From Pseudonocardiales bacterium (GTDB taxonomy: Bacteria; Actinomycetota; Actinomycetes; Mycobacteriales; QHCA01): a stretch of 42,868 nt of DNA. The position numbers and the translations under genes were made by a program. Positions 27,923-42,868 of this stretch are shown here, one piece after another. Location: positions 1-42,868 of the forward strand of contig JBDUBV010000002.1 of assembly GCA_040003795.1 (NCBI GenBank). The letters are read 5' to 3'. Under the pieces are notes generated by a model. It was given only the letters and a program-made list of their open reading frames with translations. It did no database searches and was not told the origin of the DNA. The first letter of the stretch is position 1; each line of letters begins with the position of its first letter.

Positions 27923-27943
27923 GCCCCGGTGGGCGTGCGCCGC

Positions 27944-28306
27944 TCAGACACCGGACTGGCCGGGCGCTCGGCTCGCCGGCTGGAACTCCATGTCAAAGGG
28001 GATCGTCGTCCCGGGAGCGAGCGAGACGGGCTCGGAGTAGACCTCACGCCCATCACTGATCTCATCGTCGAGCATGTCCAGCGTCTCGATGTTCACGAGT
28101 CGCCAGCGCACCTCTTCGTCGGTGTTGCTCGTGTAGGTACGCTCCATGCTCAGCCCGATCTCCACAGCACGCGCCTTGGCGGCCGGAAAGTCCTCAGCGC
28201 GGAAAAGGATCACACTGCGCGACATCTGGTCGCCGCCCGCCCCCTGCACGAGAATCATGAAGCGCAGCATGGCGCTGAACCAGACCGCGCTCACTTGGAC
28301 TTCCAT
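27944..28306 (-). CDS. DUF4288-like small acidic protein; candidate immunity protein
   Basis: 120 aa (VWFSAMLRFMILVQG...SVILFRAEDFPAAKARAVEIG...VRWRLVNIETLDMLDDEISDGREVYS). This resembles the DUF4288 pattern as I remember it. The ATG at 28306, or a GTG at 28294 forming GTGA, overlaps the end of the upstream toxin-like gene. Confidence 0.65.
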   Translation of the reverse strand: MEVQVSAVWFSAMLRFMILVQGAGGDQMSRSVILFRAEDFPAAKARAVEIGLSMERTYTSNTDEEVRWRLVNIETLDMLDDEISDGREVYSEPVSLAPGTTIPFDMEFQPASRAPGQSGV

Positions 28307-29493
28307 CGCCCGTCCGTCAGCAGTTTGCGAACCGTCGAGTCGCCCGATCTCAGCGCGTCCTCGACGGTCTGACCCTTGTATTCACCGGGAAACACCCGGT
28401 TGACCTCCGCGTTGCGGAACTTGCCGATGAAGTCCTGTACCGTCATCTGCCGGTTGGCGATCGCCGGATTGTCGACGTCGAGCTTGATCTTTCGCGCGAA
28501 CTTGAGATCTCCGGCGGGGTCGCTCGACCCCCCCACGCCGCCGCCGCTGTACCCGCCACCACTGCCGCCTCCGGTCTGCACGGCCTCGACCGGATTGTCT
28601 GCGGCGTCGCGGGCCATCTGCAGGATTCCGGCACCGGCCAGACCTGCTCCGCTCGCGATGACGCCGGCCGACAGGACGTTGACCGGCACTCCCACGAGGG
28701 CACCCACGCCAGTCAGGTCCAAGGCGACTCCGCCCACCTCACCGCCAGCACCGAGCACCATCAACGTCCCCCCGGCGAGAGTCTCCGCCAGGGCGGCCGG
28801 ATCGTTGAGCATCGCCTGCCCGTAGGACGCCAGAACGTTCACCACGTCTCCGCCGAGGTGTTCCAGGGTGTTCCCCGCGCTGCTGAAGAAGTCGCCTACC
28901 TCGTCCCAGAACCCCGGCTTCTCGGGAGCCTCGTCCCGGCCGGCACCGACGACCTTCTCTGCCGCGTCTCCAGCGGTCTGGAGCTCGGCGCGAGCGTGGT
29001 TGAGTTTGTCGCGCGCGGCTTGGCGCTTGGCCTCGCCGGCGTCCACGAACGGGATACTTGCAGGGGTCGTCGGGGTCCCGGCCGTCGTCTTCACTGCAGC
29101 GTCCTGCTGCGCCTTCTGTACTGCCTGATCATGCTGCGATATGGCCGCGGCCGTGTCGGCCTCCCCCTGATTCCACAAAGTGATGGCGCCGGCCGCCTCG
29201 TGCTGCACCCAAGTCAACTTCTCCGCGTAGGTTGACAGCGCCGCCGCCGCGCCGTGGAAGGCCTGACCTGCCTGCGTCCACTTGGCCGGCTTGCCATGGA
29301 ACTTGGAGCGGAACTGGTCACCGGCCGGCCCGCTCCATCCGGCCTCGGTATCGACCCGCACCAATCCCTCACCCGCCACGTGCAGCAGGTCGCCGTAGTC
29401 GGTCATCTGCAGTTGGGTCTTGTGCACCGCACCAGGATCGCCGGGGACCAGGGCTTGGGGGTCAGACGTCTGACCGAGTTCGGCTGCCATCAC
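28291..29493 (-). CDS. Putative T7SS-secreted modular (polymorphic-toxin-like) protein
   Basis: 400 aa. Residues 1-110 form a helical domain with a W-S-G motif and resemble the 'putative T7SS-secreted protein' N-domain. Residues 236-292 are a Gly-rich hydrophobic block. Residues 307-323 are a poly-Gly linker. Residues 324-400 are a basic module with no His or Cys and no assigned family. Confidence 0.75.
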   Translation of the reverse strand: MMAAELGQTSDPQALVPGDPGAVHKTQLQMTDYGDLLHVAGEGLVRVDTEAGWSGPAGDQFRSKFHGKPAKWTQAGQAFHGAAAALSTYAEKLTWVQHEAAGAITLWNQGEADTAAAISQHDQAVQKAQQDAAVKTTAGTPTTPASIPFVDAGEAKRQAARDKLNHARAELQTAGDAAEKVVGAGRDEAPEKPGFWDEVGDFFSSAGNTLEHLGGDVVNVLASYGQAMLNDPAALAETLAGGTLMVLGAGGEVGGVALDLTGVGALVGVPVNVLSAGVIASGAGLAGAGILQMARDAADNPVEAVQTGGGSGGGYSGGGVGGSSDPAGDLKFARKIKLDVDNPAIANRQMTVQDFIGKFRNAEVNRVFPGEYKGQTVEDALRSGDSTVRKLLTDGRWKSK

Positions 29494-29813
29494 TGCGCGG
29501 CCGGATCGGGACCAGAGCCCTGCAAGATCTGTTCCATCCGGTGCTGACCGGTCCGATCGATCTTGAGGTAGACGTCAGCACTGCGCACCAGTCGATCTGC
29601 CACCTCTTGGGTGTCCTTGATCAGATGCTCCACGCCGATCTGCCAGCGATCGCAGAAGTCCGACACCGTACCGGCCAGATGATCATGACCGAACGACGAC
29701 TTGGCGCGGTCGATGTCACTTACCCGCTTTTCGCCCACCGCCTGCATGGTGCCGACAACACCGTCAGCGGCTTCGGTCAGGGCCTTGACATCGACGCGAA
29801 ACCCGTCCGCCAT
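29490..29813 (-). CDS. EspC/WXG100-like small helical T7SS helper/target protein
   Basis: 107 aa: MADGFRVDVKALTEAADGV...FGHDHLAGTVSDFCDRWQIGVEHL...SADVYLKIDRT. A YxxxD motif lies at 29556-29570. Its stop is embedded in the start of the toxin-like gene (GTGATG). Confidence 0.7.
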   Translation of the reverse strand: MADGFRVDVKALTEAADGVVGTMQAVGEKRVSDIDRAKSSFGHDHLAGTVSDFCDRWQIGVEHLIKDTQEVADRLVRSADVYLKIDRTGQHRMEQILQGSGPDPAAQ

Positions 29814-29897
29814 GCTCCGACCCTCTCCCCGAGCGAAATATCCAGTCGGCAGAGTGTAGAAGAAATCCCCTCGTGGCAGACTGCCCCGTTATCGCCG

Positions 29898-38363: not shown

Positions 38364-38858
38364 ATGGAGGAGACCAAAGCGGCGTTGCAACGCTCGCTGG
38401 GCGGGCAGCGAGGCCATGTCTGCGGAATCCTCGAGGGACTCGATGCAGAGGCATTGCGTCGCCCGGTGCTGCCGACGGGCTGGAGCTGTGCGGGCCTCAT
38501 CCAGCACCTCGCACTCGACGTCGAGCGGTTCTGGTTCCGGGCTGTCCTGGCGGGCGAGCAGGCGGTCTGGGAGGGCTTCGGTGACGGCGACGCGTCGGCG
38601 TGGCAACTCGCCGACGACACCGACCCCCAGTCGGTAATCGCGCTATACCGCGACGAGGTGCGGCTTGCCGACGAGGTCATCACCGCAATGTCACTCGACG
38701 CACCGCCTGCTCGCTGGCCCGAGGAACTGTTCGGTGACTTCCGGCTGCCCGATCTGCAAGCCGTGCTCTTACACGTGCTGACCGAGACCTCGACCCATGC
38801 CGGGCACCTGGATGCAGCCCGCGAGCTCATCGACGGCCGAACGTGGATGGTGCTCTGA
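38364..38858 (+). CDS. DinB-fold (DUF664/mycothiol-transferase-like) protein
   Basis: ATG at 38364, 164 aa. Features: LDAEALRRPVLPTGWSCAGLIQHLA, LLHVLTETSTHAGHLD and His residues in DinB positions. Confidence 0.75.
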   Translation: MEETKAALQRSLGGQRGHVCGILEGLDAEALRRPVLPTGWSCAGLIQHLALDVERFWFRAVLAGEQAVWEGFGDGDASAWQLADDTDPQSVIALYRDEVRLADEVITAMSLDAPPARWPEELFGDFRLPDLQAVLLHVLTETSTHAGHLDAARELIDGRTWMVL

Positions 38859-38907
38859 GCGTCCGCCTGGGGCTGCCGGGGCTCGCGACGCCTGGGCGCG
38901 GCCTATT

Positions 38908-39333
38908 GTGAGCGTCGAGGTGATGGCAGTGGCCGAGTGGCTGTCAATCGAGGTCTTCGACGGGGCGTTCGCGGCCAGTGTGTGGCAGGACTCCCATGGG
39001 GACGCCTTGACCGAGGCCGCGGTGTCCCGTGGCGCCCGGTACTGGCAGTGGCACCGGCACCGCTGGGGCGTGGTGTTGGAGATTCTGTTCGACGACGACG
39101 AAACGCCGACGACCTTTCGCAACCTGACCGGCGTGCGAGCCGCGTTGGATGCGGTGCCGGACCCGGTGAACGGCCTCCTGGTCTACCGCGGACGCGGAGG
39201 GGGTGCCGGGGCGTCGGTGCCTCGCCGCCCCCGCCCCTTGCCGATGTCCGGTGCGGCGGAGCTGCAGCAGTGCGTAGATCCGGTGCCACGCCTGGCGCTT
39301 CACCCGCCCGCAGCGACGTACCCCCTCAACTGA
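38908..39333 (+). CDS. Hypothetical protein
   Basis: GTG at 38908 or ATG at 38923. An N-terminal domain of about 100 aa (AEWLSIEVFDGAFAASVWQDSHGDALTEAAV...VVLEILFDDDETPTTFRNL) is followed by a Gly/Pro/Arg-rich tail. No family recognised. Confidence 0.45.
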   Translation: MSVEVMAVAEWLSIEVFDGAFAASVWQDSHGDALTEAAVSRGARYWQWHRHRWGVVLEILFDDDETPTTFRNLTGVRAALDAVPDPVNGLLVYRGRGGGAGASVPRRPRPLPMSGAAELQQCVDPVPRLALHPPAATYPLN

Positions 39334-39513: not shown

Positions 39514-39801
39514 CTAGGTCCAGATGCGGGTGTTGCTGCGCTCACCGTCGGCGAAGTCGTCGCGGGCCAAGCCGACGGCCACGCCGATCTGGCCGAGAAT
39601 CGCGTTGAGGTCCGCGGCGGCGGTGTCCCACTCGCGCTGCCTGGCCTGGTAACCGGTCGCGGCCTCACCCGTCCACGAGTGGGTGATCTTGGAGACGAAG
39701 ACGCGGAGGTCGTCGAGCTGCTGGTTGATGCTGGCCTTGGTGTTCTGGATGTCGGTCTCCACCTGCTGGAGGCTGCCGAAACTGACGAGAATCTCTGACA
39801 T
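39514..39801 (-). CDS. WXG100 family protein (EsxA-like)
   Basis: 95 aa helical hairpin with W-T-G (HSWTGEAA) at its centre. Confidence 0.85.
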   Translation of the reverse strand: MSEILVSFGSLQQVETDIQNTKASINQQLDDLRVFVSKITHSWTGEAATGYQARQREWDTAAADLNAILGQIGVAVGLARDDFADGERSNTRIWT

Positions 39802-39820
39802 CGCTATCTCCCTGTCCCGG

Positions 39821-40129
39821 TCAGCCGAGCACGCTGGCGATGGAGTTCATGGTCTGCTCGGAGTTCTGGTCGAGCGTGTGGTAGGTCGTCTTCGACGCGT
39901 CGATGGCGTCGGCGATGTGGGCGAGAGCTTCGTTGAGCTTGGTGGCATCGGCGTGCCAGCGCTGGCGCAGGCGCTGGAAGGCGACGGCCGCCCCACCCTT
40001 CCAAGCCGAGGCCTGCCCGTCGAGTTCGGTCATGAGCCTGGTCAGTTGTCCCTGGACCTGGCTGTTGACCTGGCGTACGTCATTGGCAGCCTTGGCCATG
40101 TCGTTGAGATCGGCGCTGTAGTCGGCCAC
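39821..40129 (-). CDS. WXG100 family protein (EsxB-like, carries YxxxD)
   Basis: GTG at 40129 lies 5 nt after GAAGGAAG; the track ATG at 40180 is an alternative. W-K-G (SAWKGGAA) at the centre and a C-terminal Y-H-T-L-D export motif. Confidence 0.85.
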   Translation of the reverse strand: MADYSADLNDMAKAANDVRQVNSQVQGQLTRLMTELDGQASAWKGGAAVAFQRLRQRWHADATKLNEALAHIADAIDASKTTYHTLDQNSEQTMNSIASVLG

Positions 40130-40205
40130 GTCACTTCCTTCGCCAGGGCCTCCGGGCCGGTCGCTGGTGTTCCGGGGCAACGATGCAGCGGGCGCGCCGA
40201 TACCG

Positions 40206-42868
40206 TCAAACGGGCATAGCCGGTGTAGCCGTGCCGACCTCCAGCTCGACGGGGGCCAGCCAGGCGACCTGGGTGAGCTGATCGCCCGTGCGGCGGCTGA
40301 CCAGCACCCCCCTGCCCGGCTGCATGGGTCCCGATCGCACGTTGCCGAGCAGGACCCCCTCGTCGCGGTGTGCCGACATGGCCAGGCCGGGAGAGCCCAA
40401 CTCCTTGATCCGCTGGATCACCGGGTCGAACAGTGCTCGGCTGGCTCCGCCGCTGCGCCGCGCGACGATCAGGTGCAGGCCGATGTCGCGCGCCTGCGGC
40501 AGCAACTCCGCGATGTCGCTCAGCGGGTTGCCCGACTGCGTAGCCACCAGGTCGTAGTCGTCGACCACCAGGAACAGCTCCGGGCCACTCCACCACGACC
40601 GGTTGCGCAACTGCTCGGGTGTGACGTCGGGACCCGGCAGCCGCCGCAGCATGGAGTCGCGGACATCGTTGATCATCGGCCCGGCGGCCGCACTGCCGGT
40701 GGCATAGCCGAGCATGTGCGGCGAGTCGACGGCCTCGAGCAGCGTCCGCCGGTAGTCCACGGCGATAATCCGGGCATGCTCAGGGGTGTAGCGCACGGCG
40801 ATCCCGGCGAGCAGCAACCGGAGCAGGCCGGTCTTGCCGCACTCGACGTCGCCGAAGCACACGAAGTGCGGGTCGGCGTTGAAGTCGAGGTGGACCGGGC
40901 CGAGATCGGCCTCGCGAATGCCGATCGGGATGCCCGCCGGTGAGGAGACCGGGTCGGCGGACGGCAGGTCACCGGCCGAAAACATGGCCGGCAGCAGTCG
41001 CACCCGCGGCGAGGGCAGCCCCCGCCAGGCCTGGGCGATCGCCCCGACCGCCGTGGCAGTGGCCGCGGACAGGCCCGCCGCCGACCACTGCCCGTCGATG
41101 CGCGGCAGGGCAGTGAGCAGGTGCAGCTTGTCGCGGGTGAGTCCCCGGCCCGGGCACGCCTCGGGTACGTTGGCCGCCGCGCGGCGGTCGATCTCGGACT
41201 CCGACGGGTCACCCAGCCGTAGTTCGAGCCTCGTGCCGATCATGTCGCGCAGGGCAGACCGGATCTCGGCCCATCGGGTGGCACCGAGCACGACGTGGAT
41301 GCCGTAGCTCAGGCCGCGGGTCGCCAGGCCGATGATGACCGGCTCGAGCAGCTCGAACTCGGTCTTGAACGTGGTCCAGCCGTCGATCACCAGGAAGACG
41401 TCGCCGAAGCGGTCCTCGGGGACGTCACCCGAAGCCCGACGGGCGCGATAGGTGGCCATCCCATCGATGCCGAGCTCGTAGAAGCGGCGTTCACGCTCCT
41501 CCAGCACCCCGGTCACTTCGGCGACCATCCGCCGCACCATGTCGGGATCGAGGCGCCCCGCGACGCCCCCGACGTGTGGCAGGCCGGTCACCGATGTCAG
41601 CGAGCCGCCGCCGAAGTCGAGGCAGAAGAACTGCACCTCGGCCGGGGTGTGCGCCAGCGCAAGGCTGGTGATCAGCGTCCGCAGCAGGGTGCTCTTGCCG
41701 CTCTGCGGGCCGCCCACGACTACGCCGTGCCCGGCCGCGCCGGACAGGTCGGCCCACAGCGGGTCGCGGCGCTGCTCGAAGGGCCGGTCGACCAGGCCGA
41801 CCGGCACGGTCAGCGAACCGATGGACGGCCAGTCGACCGGACATAACCCGCGGTCGGCGGTGACGGCAATCGGGGGATACAGCGAGTCCAGCGGCGGCGG
41901 CTCCTCCAGCGGCGGCAGCCAGACCTGATGCGCGGCGGGACCGCGGCCGGCGAGCCGCCCGACCGCCACGTCCAGCAGGGTCTCGGGCACCGGCATGTCG
42001 GGCGCCCCGGCCGCCGGCTGCTCGTCGAGGAAGGACTCCAGCGCGGCCGGGGCTGCCTGCGCCGGCGCGACGTAGCCAGTCGAGAACGGCACCGGCAACT
42101 CACCGCCCACCACCGCGGTGCCCCGGTCACGCACCGCGTTGCCGCCGTAGGCGCCGGAGACGTAGGCAGCCTTGAACCGGGTGAGTGTGGTCGTGTCGAC
42201 CTTGAGATAGCCCGACCCGGGGACAGCGGGGAGCTCGTAGGCATCGGGCACGCCAAGGACGGTCCGGCTCTCGGCAGCGGAGAACGTGCGCAGGCCGATT
42301 CGGTAGGACAGGTGGCTGTCCAGGCCGCGCAGCCGGCCCTCCTCCAGCCGCTGGGAGGCCAGCAGGAGGTGGATGCCCAGGCTGCGGCCGAGCCGGCCGA
42401 TCGCGACGAACAGGTCGATGAAGTCGGGCTTGGCGGTGAGCAACTCGCTGAACTCGTCGCACACGATCAGCAGCGACGGCAGGGGCAGCAGGTCGGCGCC
42501 TTTTTCGCGGGCCCGCTCGTAGTCACGCACCGACGCGAAGTTGCCGGCCGACTTGAGCAGCTCCTGGCGGCGCAGCAACTCCCCCTGCAAGGCGTCGCGC
42601 ATCCGGTCGACCATGGTCAGGTCATCGGCGAGGTTGGTGATGACTGCGGCGGTGTGCGGCAGGCCGGCCAGGCCGGTGAAGGTCGCGCCGCCCTTGAAGT
42701 CGACGAGGACGAAGTTGAGGGTCTCCGACGAGTGGGTCATCGCCAGGCCGAGTACGAGAGTGCGCAACAGTTCACTCTTGCCGGAGCCGGTGGAGCCGAT
42801 CACCAGCCCGTGGGGGCCCATCCCCTCCTGCGCCGACTCCTTGAGGTCTAGCTCGACCGGCTCGCCAC
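40206..42868 (-). CDS. eccC: Type VII secretion FtsK/SpoIIIE ATPase EccC (N-terminus outside the window)
   Basis: The frame stays open to the window edge (GEPVELDLKESAQEGMGPHGLVIGSTGSGKSELLRT). Three P-loops are present: GSTGSGKS, GGPQSGKS and GDVECGKT. It lies directly upstream of two WXG100 genes. Confidence 0.95.
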   Translation of the reverse strand, partial: GEPVELDLKESAQEGMGPHGLVIGSTGSGKSELLRTLVLGLAMTHSSETLNFVLVDFKGGATFTGLAGLPHTAAVITNLADDLTMVDRMRDALQGELLRRQELLKSAGNFASVRDYERAREKGADLLPLPSLLIVCDEFSELLTAKPDFIDLFVAIGRLGRSLGIHLLLASQRLEEGRLRGLDSHLSYRIGLRTFSAAESRTVLGVPDAYELPAVPGSGYLKVDTTTLTRFKAAYVSGAYGGNAVRDRGTAVVGGELPVPFSTGYVAPAQAAPAALESFLDEQPAAGAPDMPVPETLLDVAVGRLAGRGPAAHQVWLPPLEEPPPLDSLYPPIAVTADRGLCPVDWPSIGSLTVPVGLVDRPFEQRRDPLWADLSGAAGHGVVVGGPQSGKSTLLRTLITSLALAHTPAEVQFFCLDFGGGSLTSVTGLPHVGGVAGRLDPDMVRRMVAEVTGVLEERERRFYELGIDGMATYRARRASGDVPEDRFGDVFLVIDGWTTFKTEFELLEPVIIGLATRGLSYGIHVVLGATRWAEIRSALRDMIGTRLELRLGDPSESEIDRRAAANVPEACPGRGLTRDKLHLLTALPRIDGQWSAAGLSAATATAVGAIAQAWRGLPSPRVRLLPAMFSAGDLPSADPVSSPAGIPIGIREADLGPVHLDFNADPHFVCFGDVECGKTGLLRLLLAGIAVRYTPEHARIIAVDYRRTLLEAVDSPHMLGYATGSAAAGPMINDVRDSMLRRLPGPDVTPEQLRNRSWWSGPELFLVVDDYDLVATQSGNPLSDIAELLPQARDIGLHLIVARRSGGASRALFDPVIQRIKELGSPGLAMSAHRDEGVLLGNVRSGPMQPGRGVLVSRRTGDQLTQVAWLAPVELEVGTATPAMPV

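What the first reader, a model, noticed from the sequence alone, without database searches (positions are those of the whole stretch)
27944..29813. T7SS-type effector cassette (YxxxD helper, WXG-bearing modular protein, overlapping small ORF) inserted in the acpS-nnr-alr housekeeping block
Seen in sequence:
- Three minus-strand ORFs have interlocked stops and starts (GTGATG at 29488-29493; overlap at 28291-28306). An 84-nt lower-GC spacer follows acpS, and nnr starts 21 nt downstream of the cassette.
- ORF1 (107 aa, helical) carries Y-L-K-I-D at 29556-29570.
- ORF2 (400 aa) opens with a helical domain of about 110 aa containing W-S-G at 29329-29337. An Ala/charged helical stretch, a Gly-rich hydrophobic block, a poly-Gly linker and a 77-aa basic C-terminal module follow.
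- ORF3 (120 aa) is acidic.
- A/T-ending codons are visibly more frequent than in the flanking genes.

Established knowledge: WXG plus YxxxD/E on paired helical hairpins forms the composite ESX/T7SS export signal. A trafficking domain, a variable C-terminal toxin and a downstream immunity gene make up the polymorphic-toxin layout, as in Firmicute LXG/Lap systems.

Inference: this is a T7SS-exported toxin/immunity module served by the eccC-esx locus about 10 kb away. To my knowledge this helper / C-terminal module / DUF4288 combination has not been characterised.
Basis: partly seen in the sequence, partly recalled or inferred. Interest (0 to 1): 0.85.

Follow-up and report, generated by a model that had tools for sequence, protein, structure and literature searches.

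The report
Secreted toxin cassette with immunity gene
Three small genes wedged between two housekeeping genes of an actinobacterium encode a helper protein, a modular secreted toxin and its antidote. This kind of bacterial weapon is already known, but its toxin tip and its antidote family (DUF4288) have not been described.

Summary
Three translationally coupled minus-strand genes form a 1.97-kb insert with lower GC3 between acpS and nnr. An ESX-4-like eccC/esx locus lies about 10 kb away.

ORF2 carries Pfam T7SS_signal (E=1.7e-40). After a Gly-rich block its homologues carry many different toxin domains, which is the polymorphic-toxin signature.

ORF1 belongs to a 108-aa family distantly related to EspC/WXG100. 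It has an invariant Tyr with D/E four residues later, and it precedes T7SS_signal genes in every locus examined.

ORF2's 73-78-aa basic C-terminal module is a family no Pfam model covers. It always sits at the extreme C-terminus, also of Rhs, PT-HINT, eCIS and ALF proteins. In 6 of 8 contexts a DUF4288 gene follows it, so DUF4288 is its immunity family.

Relatives have no cassette at this site, the same cassette, or one with a different toxin and immunity pair.

The module's confident model (pLDDT 90) matches no solved fold, so its activity is unknown.

The kind is known: Pfam and NCBI label such proteins, and an ESX-4-dependent toxin with helper and immunity proteins was shown in mycobacteria in 2026. 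This is a new member of a known kind, of moderate interest. Nothing about export or toxicity was tested.

The parts
29814..29897 (-). 84-nt spacer between the acpS stop and the ORF1 start; upstream edge of the insert
   Evidence: Read directly. Relatives L001-L003 have acpS abutting nnr. No sigma-70-like promoter consensus was found.
29490..29813 (-). ORF1, the helper: a 107-aa acidic helical protein, a distant relative of EspC/WXG100, proposed to be the signal-bearing partner of ORF2
   Evidence: Pfam EspC E=0.034 and WXG100 E=0.14, both below the cut-offs. 18 of 25 family members hit EspC, best 1.1e-5. 76 homologues of about 108 aa in Actinomycetota. It sits directly upstream of T7SS_signal genes in L004, L040, L049 and L050.
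29556..29570 (-). Y-L-K-I-D, a YxxxD/E motif in ORF1
   Evidence: Tyr82 is invariant, and D or E lies four residues later in 25 of 25 aligned family members.
29493..29510 (-). Conserved C-terminal tail of ORF1 (G-P-D-P-A-A-Q region), a candidate contact for the EccC ATPase
   Evidence: G101, D103 and P104 are invariant in alignment A3. The proposed role is inference by analogy with the EsxB C-terminal signal (established knowledge).
28291..29493 (-). ORF2, the modular carrier-toxin (400 aa from GTG 29493; more likely 399 aa from ATG 29490, whose A is shared with the ORF1 stop in TGATG)
   Evidence: Homologues start MAAELGQT or MAELGQT.
28915..29481 (-). T7SS_signal N-domain (aa 5-193): an elongated three-helix bundle
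   Evidence: PF21725 E=1.7e-40, 139.9 bits against a cut-off of 27. AlphaFold pLDDT is above 90, with helices 20-47, 56-137 and 154-188.
29329..29337 (-). W-S-G (WxG) in the loop between helix 1 and helix 2 of the N-domain
   Evidence: W53 is invariant and G55 is at least 90% conserved in 45 homologues. It falls in the loop 48-55 of the model.
28579..28911 (-). Conserved Gly-rich hydrophobic pre-toxin block (aa 195-305, core GAGGEVGGVALDLTGVGALVGVPVNVLSAGVIA)
   Evidence: Conserved in all ORF2 homologues whatever their toxin (L258, D259, T261 and G264 at least 90%). Also present just before the toxin in Rhs-associated proteins and in proteins with WXG100-like or Hydro_N_hd N-domains. Not recognised by Pfam PT-TG. 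AlphaFold confidence is low.
28522..28578 (-). Poly-Gly/Ser linker (aa 306-324) where homologues diverge
   Evidence: Alignment A5 loses all conservation after this point.
28294..28527 (-). C-terminal toxin module (aa 323-400, conserved core from G-D-L-K-F-A-R-K at aa 328): basic, all-alpha, in no Pfam family
   Evidence: 169 representative clusters at E<=1e-3, always at the extreme C-terminus. Carriers include RHS, PT-HINT, eCIS_core, ALF and WXG100_2 proteins. No Pfam hit. AlphaFold pLDDT 90.1. No Foldseek match in the PDB or BFVD. pI 9.7.
27944..28306 (-). ORF3, a DUF4288 protein and the proposed cytoplasmic immunity protein (120 aa from ATG 28306; 116 aa if it starts at GTG 28294, which overlaps the ORF2 stop as GTGA)
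   Evidence: PF14119 E=5.5e-11, 43 bits against a cut-off of 27. pI 4.3. A DUF4288 gene follows the toxin module in L040, L041, L044-46, L047-48 and L052.
27923..27943 (-). 21-nt spacer before nnr; downstream edge of the insert
   Evidence: No flanking direct or inverted repeats.
39514..40180 (-). Two WXG100 (esx) genes of the neighbouring T7SS locus
   Evidence: PF06013 E=1.3e-12 and 2.1e-15.
40206..42868 (-). C-terminal part of eccC (FtsK/SpoIIIE ATPase), cut by the window end; the proposed exporter
   Evidence: PF01580 E=1.2e-90 with three domains. The reading frame is open to the window edge.

Best explanation
The three genes are one polymorphic-toxin cassette of the actinobacterial type VII secretion (ESX-4-type) class. 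It was acquired as an accessory insert between acpS and nnr.

**Shown by computation**
- ORF2 is built from four parts: a conserved T7SS_signal helical domain with WxG, a conserved Gly-rich hydrophobic pre-toxin block, a poly-Gly hinge, and an exchangeable 73-78-aa C-terminal toxin domain.
- ORF1 is the family-specific small helical partner and carries a conserved YxxxD/E motif and a conserved G-x-D-P tail.
- ORF3 (DUF4288) is the gene that travels with this toxin domain on several unrelated scaffolds.

**Inferred mechanism**
1. ORF1 pairs with the ORF2 N-domain in a helical bundle. This brings WxG and YxxxD/E together as the composite export signal read by EccC of the neighbouring T7SS.
2. 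In the producer, acidic ORF3 binds and blocks the basic toxin domain.
3. After export, the hydrophobic Gly-rich block helps the toxin domain cross the target cell's membrane.
4. The toxin domain acts on a cytoplasmic target. The target is most probably a nucleic acid or the translation apparatus, but that last step is a weak guess (about 0.35).
For: **Carrier and polymorphism**
- ORF2 hits PF21725 at E=1.7e-40.
- 50 homologues share residues 1-320 and then carry Ntox28, Ntox24, CdiA-type tRNase, RNase A-like, glutamine deamidase or unknown ends. NCBI names them 'putative T7SS-secreted protein'.

**Helper**
- The helper family has an invariant Tyr with D/E at +4 in 25 of 25 members, a conserved R-W-x-x-G and a conserved G-x-D-P tail.
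- 18 of 25 members give EspC hits.
- The helper gene is coupled to a T7SS_signal gene in Actinocrispum (with Ntox28 and a CdiI_3 immunity gene) and in Streptomyces (with Ntox24).

**Toxin module and immunity**
- The C-terminal module has 169 representative clusters and is always C-terminal. Its carriers include RHS (12), PT-HINT (7), eCIS_core (5), ALF and WXG100_2 proteins.
- A DUF4288 gene follows the module in 6 of 8 contexts. One is an Rhs orphan array where the pair sits beside a barnase/barstar pair.
- The module is basic (pI 9.7) and ORF3 acidic (pI 4.3), with nothing resembling a signal peptide or transmembrane segment seen in ORF3 by eye.

**Locus and machinery**
- The same chromosomal site is empty in L001-L003, identical in L040, and holds helper, T7SS_signal protein, another toxin and another immunity gene, plus a decayed second copy, in L004.
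- GC3 is lower than in the flanks.
- eccC and two esx genes lie in the window.

**Precedent**
- ESX-4-dependent EatA with Tap helpers and the EatI immunity protein; similar loci are reported across Actinomycetota (PMC13444075).
Against: - No experiment: export, heterodimer formation, toxicity and neutralisation are all untested.
- ORF1 itself scores below the Pfam cut-offs (15 bits against 23.5).
- The ORF1-ORF2 complex could not be modelled because only single chains can be predicted here.
- Foldseek of the ORF2 model returned only generic long-helix (BAR-like) matches at E>=0.014, and no T7SS substrate.
- The toxin module has no conserved His or Cys and no detectable fold relative, so no activity can be assigned.
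- Two diverged module variants are followed by proteins that are not DUF4288.
- One DUF4288 gene stands alone on an Acinetobacter plasmid with no module nearby.
- Only eccC and the esx genes of the machinery are visible. eccB, eccD and mycP would lie outside the window.
Confidence: 0.75

Rival explanations
1. The short module plus DUF4288 is in essence an intracellular toxin-antitoxin or abortive-infection pair. In this lineage it happens to be fused to a secretion carrier, and its main role is inside the producer cell rather than in killing neighbours.
For: Free-standing short module genes (50-108 aa) paired with DUF4288 exist without any trafficking domain. Some lie next to transposases or near antitoxin-type genes such as TacA1.
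Against: Most longer carriers are classic delivery scaffolds: Rhs, PT-HINT, eCIS and T7SS. The short copies look like the orphan cassettes that typically trail polymorphic toxin genes, as in the Rhs array of L044-46. In the window the module is fused in frame to an intact, conserved T7SS_signal carrier with a coupled helper gene.
Confidence: 0.08
2. The cassette encodes a secreted T7SS substrate that is not a toxin, for example a developmental, adhesion or signalling effector. DUF4288 would then act as its chaperone.
For: No enzymatic motif or known toxin fold is found in the module. In Actinomycetota many T7SS substrates are not antibacterial toxins (established knowledge of Esx and Esp proteins).
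Against: The module occupies exactly the position that known toxin domains take in its ORF2 homologues. It also sits at the tip of Rhs, HINT and eCIS proteins. The downstream gene changes together with the C-terminal domain. A basic module with an acidic partner is the usual toxin/immunity pattern.
Confidence: 0.08
3. The toxic principle is the Gly-rich hydrophobic block, which would act as a membrane-depolarising, glycine-zipper-like pore. The C-terminal module would be only an accessory or targeting piece.
For: The block is strongly hydrophobic (GRAVY +0.59) and rich in small-residue repeats. Membrane-depolarising T7SS toxins are known in Bacillota, for example TspA (background in PMC9484751).
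Against: The block is present unchanged in homologues that end in recognised enzymatic toxins (Ntox28, Ntox24, tRNase domains). It also lies upstream of the toxins of Rhs proteins. That behaviour fits a shared delivery or pre-toxin element, not the payload. ORF3 has no membrane segment, as a membrane-toxin immunity protein usually would.
Confidence: 0.06

Closest known systems
Actinobacterial Eat/Tap loci: the ESX-4-dependent toxin EatA with TapA1/TapA2 helpers and the EatI immunity protein (Benedict et al., Nat Commun 2026, PMC13444075)
   Same: Same phylum and the same gene order: small helical helper gene(s), then a protein with an elongated N-terminal helical domain and a C-terminal payload, then an immunity gene. 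The likely machine is also the same, an ESX-4-type T7SS. That paper reports such loci across Actinomycetota with diverse payloads, 47% of them of unknown function.
   Different: Here there is one helper, not two. The payload is a 73-78-aa basic cytoplasm-directed module, not a GH183 arabinanase acting on the cell wall. The immunity protein is cytoplasmic DUF4288, not a lipoprotein. Sequence relatedness of ORF1 to Tap proteins, or of the ORF2 N-domain to EatA, was not tested because those sequences were not at hand.
Pfam PF21725 T7SS_signal proteins (named 'putative T7SS-secreted protein' by NCBI)
   Same: ORF2 is a clear member (139.9 bits). It shares the WxG and the Gly-rich block, and the family shows variable C-terminal toxins.
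   Different: ORF2 matches only profile positions 58-241, so it lacks the N-terminal extension some members have. Among the hits of the 5.8-billion-protein search, its C-terminal module on this carrier was found in only one other sequence, P0002.
LXG toxins with Lap helpers of the Bacillota T7SSb
   Same: The logic is the same: helper(s) carrying part of a composite signal, an N-terminal helical carrier, an exchangeable C-terminal toxin and a downstream immunity gene.
   Different: No LXG domain is detected, the phylum and the machine differ (T7SSa versus T7SSb), and there is a single helper. It works like this system but is not a member.
Rhs (YD-repeat) polymorphic toxins with orphan toxin/immunity arrays
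   Same: The same C-terminal module, at 60-70% identity, ends Rhs proteins. The module plus DUF4288 also occurs as an orphan cassette downstream of an Rhs gene, beside a barnase/barstar pair.
   Different: The window protein has no Rhs repeats. Its delivery domain is T7SS_signal.
WXG/PT-TG/toxin architectures of Bacillota (PMC13483458)
   Same: An N-terminal WXG-type domain, then a Gly-rich pre-toxin element containing a T-G motif, then a toxin, with small helical proteins encoded upstream.
   Different: The Pfam PT-TG model does not match the window's block. The taxa and the toxin families differ.

Membership tests
Polymorphic toxin system (as defined by Zhang et al. 2012, PMC3482391) | A conserved N-terminal trafficking region with unrelated C-terminal domains among close homologues | tested here: met
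   45 homologues align over residues 1-320 and then diverge completely. Their ends include Ntox28, Ntox24, CdiA-type, RNase A-like and deamidase domains.
Polymorphic toxin system (as defined by Zhang et al. 2012, PMC3482391) | The same C-terminal domain reused on other delivery scaffolds | tested here: met
   The module is found at the C-terminus of RHS (12), PT-HINT (7), eCIS_core (5), ALF (1) and WXG100_2 (1) proteins among 90 representatives.
Polymorphic toxin system (as defined by Zhang et al. 2012, PMC3482391) | An immunity gene immediately downstream that changes together with the toxin domain | tested here: met
   DUF4288 follows this module in 6 of 8 contexts. Other immunity genes follow other toxins on the same carrier (L004 138 aa; L049 CdiI_3; L050 167 aa).
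Polymorphic toxin system (as defined by Zhang et al. 2012, PMC3482391) | Toxicity of the C-terminal domain, neutralised by the cognate immunity protein | not testable with these tools
   This needs expression experiments.
Pfam PF21725 T7SS_signal | HMM score above the gathering threshold | tested here: met
   139.9 bits against 27, E=1.7e-40, residues 5-193.
T7SS substrate with a composite export signal | A conserved WxG at a helix-helix turn | tested here: met
   W53 is invariant and G55 at least 90% conserved. It lies in the loop 48-55 between helices 20-47 and 56-137 of the model.
T7SS substrate with a composite export signal | A YxxxD/E motif on the substrate or its partner | tested here: met
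   ORF1 has Y82-L-K-I-D. The Tyr is invariant and D/E lies at +4 in 25 of 25 family members.
T7SS substrate with a composite export signal | A helical-bundle heterodimer of the substrate domain and its partner | not testable with these tools
   Only single-chain prediction was available. An attempt to build a fused alignment misaligned and was dropped.
T7SS substrate with a composite export signal | T7SS machinery encoded in the same genome | tested here: met
   eccC (three FtsK domains, E=1.2e-90) and two WXG100 genes lie in the window. eccB, eccD and mycP are not visible because the window ends inside eccC.
T7SS substrate with a composite export signal | EccC-dependent secretion | not testable with these tools
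   This needs a comparison of the secretomes of wild type and an eccC mutant.
WXG100/EspC clan (for ORF1) | HMM score above the gathering threshold | tested here: not met
   ORF1 scores 15.0 bits on EspC (cut-off 23.5) and 12.9 bits on WXG100 (cut-off 27.3). Across the family 18 of 25 members hit EspC at E<=1 (best 1.1e-5) and 13 of 25 hit WXG100. This indicates a distant relative, not a demonstrated member.
LXG domain (PF04740) with Lap helpers | An LXG HMM match on the carrier | tested here: not met
   There is no LXG hit for ORF2 at E<=1.
PT-TG pre-toxin domain (PF14449) | An HMM match on the Gly-rich block | tested here: not met
   At E<=5 there is no PT-TG hit for ORF2 residues 195-325, nor for Rhs-associated proteins that share the block.
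Pfam PF14119 DUF4288 (for ORF3) | HMM score above the gathering threshold | tested here: met
   43 bits against 27, E=5.5e-11, covering profile positions 1-84 of 84.
Eat/Tap loci (PMC13444075) | Sequence or structural homology of the helper to TapA1/A2 and of the carrier to the EatA N-domain | not tested
Only the locus architecture was compared.

The most novel reading that the evidence does not exclude
The 73-78-aa C-terminal module may be a toxin fold and activity not yet described. It is small, all-alpha, lacks His and Cys, and is shared by T7SS, Rhs, HINT-processed and eCIS weapons in several phyla. DUF4288 would be its dedicated immunity family. If so, the module hits a universal cytoplasmic target by a mechanism unlike the known nuclease, deaminase, ADP-ribosyltransferase or NADase toxins.
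Probability: 0.35. Interest if true: 0.6.

Novelty: new member of a known kind. Interest (0 to 1): 0.42.

Why it matters
- It gives a function to a Pfam domain of unknown function: DUF4288 is proposed to be an immunity protein.
- It defines a widespread toxin domain that no Pfam model covers and that has no structural relative. The domain is small enough (about 75 residues) to be easy to study.
- It adds a clear case to the recent picture of ESX-4-type secretion systems in Actinomycetota as antibacterial weapons. The same chromosomal site is empty, filled, or filled with another toxin in close relatives.
- It defines a one-helper family with a conserved YxxxD/E motif and tail. That family could be used to find more T7SSa substrates.
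- It does not change the understanding of how such systems work.

Tried and rejected
- **Fold of the toxin module.** The model is confident (pLDDT 90.1). Foldseek found nothing in the PDB (best E=1.4) or in BFVD (best E=0.96). A profile search of PDB sequences gave only chance HEAT-like matches.
- **Helix-turn-helix reading.** The motif T-V-E-E-A-L-x-S-G-x-S-T-V-R-K-L-L looks like an excisionase-type helix-turn-helix. No HTH family matched in Pfam scans of 56 members beyond a single E=0.076 hit, and Foldseek gave no HTH match. The idea is not supported.
- **Gly-rich block as PT-TG.** No hit.
- **ORF1 plus ORF2 N-domain as one fused chain.** MAFFT misaligned the ORF2 homologues onto the helper part.
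- **Foldseek of the ORF2 model.** Only BAR-domain-like long helices at non-significant E-values. This says nothing either way about membership of the T7SS substrate fold.
- **Insertion signatures.** No flanking direct or inverted repeats, and no integrase or transposase in the insert. No consensus promoter or terminator.
- **NCBIfam.** No hit for any of the three proteins.
- **ORF3 against PDB sequences.** No hit at E<=10.
- **Profile search with the word-indexed database.** It returned only 24 short proteins. That was enough for genomic contexts but not for a census.
Full report
**1. The observation**

The sequence shows the GTGATG junction at 29493-29488, Y-L-K-I-D at 29556-29570 and W-S-G at 29329-29337. 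It also shows an 84-nt spacer after acpS and 21 nt before nnr.

Pfam confirms the flanking genes. They are glmS, acpS, nnr and alr, then a tsaB/rimI/tsaD block on one side, and glmM, rpsI, rplM, an ABC-F protein, two WXG100 genes and eccC on the other. eccC is cut by the window end. The rest of the window holds housekeeping genes: guaA, guaB, sigD/rsdA-like genes and groEL. From my own knowledge of the M. tuberculosis genome, the order rplM-rpsI next to esx-eccC is that of the ESX-4 region. I therefore call this locus ESX-4-like. That label is a lead, not a test.

GC3 is 0.73, 0.81 and 0.83 for ORF1-3, against 0.90-0.93 for the neighbours. Two small corrections apply:
- ORF2 probably starts at ATG 29490, with a TGATG overlap, as its homologues do.
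- ORF3 may start at GTG 28294, with a GTGA overlap, which fits the homologues' N-termini.

**2. What the parts are**

*ORF2 carrier.* Residues 5-193 match Pfam T7SS_signal at E=1.7e-40. A search of 5.8 billion proteins returned about 50 full-length relatives from Actinomycetota. They include Kitasatospora, Streptomyces, Amycolatopsis, Actinoplanes and Miniimonas, and NCBI names several of them 'putative T7SS-secreted protein'.

The alignment is conserved through residue ~305. W53 is invariant, G55 is conserved, and an L-D-x-T-G-V-G core lies in a Gly-rich hydrophobic block. All similarity is lost after a Gly/Ser hinge. Beyond the hinge the relatives carry Ntox28, Ntox24, CdiA-type tRNase, RNase A-like, glutamine-deamidase or unannotated domains. 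That is the defining pattern of a polymorphic toxin.

AlphaFold2 with this alignment gives a confident N-domain (pLDDT >90): helix 20-47, a WxG loop, a 70-80-residue helix 56-137 and helix 154-188. The Gly-rich block has low confidence. Foldseek found only generic long-helix matches, so the fold comparison with solved T7SS substrates is inconclusive.

*ORF1 helper.* It has 76 homologues of about 108 aa in Actinomycetota. In 25 aligned members Tyr82 is invariant and position +4 is always D or E. An R-W-x-x-G motif in mid-chain and a C-terminal G-x-D-P tail are also invariant.

ORF1 itself scores below the Pfam cut-offs for EspC and WXG100. Across the family, however, 18 of 25 members hit EspC (best 1.1e-5) and 13 of 25 hit WXG100. 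This points to a distant relative of that clan.

In Actinocrispum and Streptomyces the helper gene overlaps the start of a T7SS_signal gene by one base. Those genes carry Ntox28 (followed by a CdiI_3 immunity gene) and Ntox24 respectively. The helper therefore travels with the carrier, not with the toxin.

*C-terminal module.* An exhaustive HMMER scan of 1.84 billion representative proteins with ORF2 residues 323-400 found 169 clusters at E<=1e-3. In all but two likely spurious repeat proteins and one apparently read-through case, the match ends within a few residues of the C-terminus. The carriers range from 50 to 2320 aa.

Among the 90 carriers of at least 180 aa, Pfam finds RHS repeats (12), PT-HINT (7), eCIS_core (5), DUF6531 (3), ALF (1) and WXG100_2 (1). 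The three longest are Rhs proteins.

No Pfam model matches the module itself, whether in ORF2 or in 56 diverse members scanned one by one. Conserved positions are mostly basic or acidic: R38, E49, E56, R67, K68 and R74, within the motif V-R-K-L-L-x-D-x-R. There is no conserved His or Cys.

The AlphaFold2 model is confident (mean pLDDT 90.1) and consists of six short helices. Foldseek finds no relative in the PDB (best E=1.4) or in BFVD (best E=0.96).

*ORF3.* It is a DUF4288 protein (E=5.5e-11) and is acidic (pI 4.3, against 9.7 for the module). I saw nothing resembling a signal peptide or membrane segment in the sequence; this was by eye, not by a predictor.

I looked at eight genomic contexts of the module.

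| Context | Gene after the module |
|---|---|
| The window | DUF4288 |
| Metagenome twin L040 | DUF4288 |
| Cellulomonas composti (L041), 70-aa orphan module | DUF4288 |
| Rhs orphan array (L044-46), beside a barnase/barstar pair | DUF4288 |
| Stand-alone pair next to a transposase (L047-48) | DUF4288 |
| L052 | DUF4288 |
| Diverged variant in Scytonema (L051) | unrelated small protein |
| Diverged variant in L053 | unrelated small protein |

A lone DUF4288 gene with no module nearby sits on an Acinetobacter lwoffii plasmid. The linkage is therefore strong but not absolute, as is usual for toxin and immunity families.

**3. The locus in relatives**

I used Nnr as a probe against one genome per species.

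| Locus | Nnr identity | State of the acpS-nnr site |
|---|---|---|
| L001, L002, L003 | 70-74% | acpS abuts nnr, no cassette |
| L004 (the closest) | 80% | helper, then a 416-aa T7SS_signal protein with a different C-terminal domain, then a 138-aa candidate immunity gene, then a second, frameshifted copy of the same arrangement |
| Metagenome contig L040 (GlmS 94% identical) | not measured | the window's arrangement, with 67-79% identical proteins |

More distant Nocardioidaceae mostly have acpS next to nnr. Some carry unrelated inserts of 1-7 kb there.

No repeats, integrase or transposase flank the window's insert. Exchange by homologous recombination through the conserved flanks, or through the conserved carrier, is the simplest reading. 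That is inference.

**4. How it most likely works**

Shown:
- the domain architecture;
- the conservation of WxG on ORF2 and of YxxxD/E on ORF1;
- the coupling of the three genes;
- the modular exchange of toxin and immunity genes;
- the presence of eccC and esx genes nearby.

Inferred from established T7SS knowledge (Esx pairs, LXG/Lap, and the 2026 EatA/Tap work, PMC13444075):
- ORF1 and the ORF2 N-domain form a helical bundle whose composite signal is read by EccC;
- ORF3 neutralises the module in the producer;
- the conserved hydrophobic Gly-rich block, shared with Rhs-associated proteins, helps the module enter the target cell;
- the module acts in the cytoplasm.

The cytoplasmic site rests on the immunity protein appearing soluble. 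The guess that the target is a nucleic acid or the translation apparatus rests only on the charge pattern of a basic toxin and an acidic immunity protein. I give it about 0.35.

**5. Comparison with what is known**

The kind is known. Polymorphic toxins with WXG-type T7SS leaders in Actinobacteria were catalogued in 2012 (PMC3482391), Pfam has the T7SS_signal family, and NCBI labels its members. In 2026 an ESX-4-dependent antibacterial toxin with Tap helpers and an immunity protein was demonstrated in Mycobacterium abscessus. That paper states that similar loci with diverse payloads, nearly half of them unknown, are widespread in Actinomycetota.

The cassette works like LXG/Lap systems but is not a member, because no LXG domain is detected. 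Its Gly-rich block resembles the PT-TG pre-toxin element, but the Pfam model does not match it.

What appears undescribed is the toxin module family and the role of DUF4288. No paper in the searchable library mentions DUF4288 or PF21725. Supplementary tables of other papers could not be searched.

**6. Verdict**

The finding is a new member of a known kind. It yields a useful by-product, namely a new toxin domain with no known fold and a proposed function for DUF4288. Export, toxicity and immunity remain to be tested.

Noticed in passing
L004:6254-7935 (closest relative, same acpS-nnr site): After the first cassette there is a second helper/T7SS_signal/toxin/immunity copy. It is broken by frameshifts: the helper is fused to the N-domain in one ORF, and the toxin end and the immunity fragment are split. 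This looks like a tandem duplication in decay, and its last immunity fragment runs into the nnr start.
   Followed up: partly
L008, L011, L016, L017, L019-L021, L023, L030 (acpS-nnr gaps of 1-7 kb): In several Nocardioidaceae the same acpS-nnr junction holds unrelated inserts. By their sequences alone these look like a DUF559-like endonuclease gene, an HNH/DUF222-like gene, a transposase and a large amidase-like protein. The junction therefore seems to be a recurrent landing site for accessory DNA across families.
   Followed up: partly
L044-L046:4701-7784 (Rhs orphan array): Downstream of a 1715-aa Rhs/PT-HINT protein lies an orphan array: an 83-aa ORF, the module (84 aa) with DUF4288, two unknown ORFs, then a 220-aa barnase-type ribonuclease with barstar. 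It is a ready-made natural control for testing the module/DUF4288 pair.
   Followed up: partly
Immunity proteins of the window (27944-27964), L040, L041 and L044: The actinobacterial DUF4288 proteins that follow the module all end in the same tail, (E/D/A)-P-G-Q-S-G-V. The more distant ones end in P-x-Q-T-[IV]. A conserved extreme C-terminus is unusual and might be the part that plugs into the toxin.
   Followed up: no
Representative hits P0085-P0213: Many carriers of the module outside Actinomycetota share a further conserved stretch just upstream of it (…N/R-S-G-P-I-x-[RK]-S-L-G-A-A-S-R-A-E-M-L-A-[RK]-K-L…). It may be a processing site or a second pre-toxin element specific to that subfamily.
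   Followed up: no
L054 = NZ_MT742180.1:64668-65012 (Acinetobacter lwoffii plasmid): A DUF4288 gene stands alone next to an integrase fragment, with no module-like sequence within 4 kb. It is either an orphan immunity gene or a sign that DUF4288 has other roles.
   Followed up: yes
window:37100-38065 (-) and 38797-39333 (+): Two ORFs with coding-like composition lie between the ABC-F gene and the esx pair. They have no Pfam match and were not examined. They sit beside the T7SS locus and could be further substrates or accessory genes.
   Followed up: no
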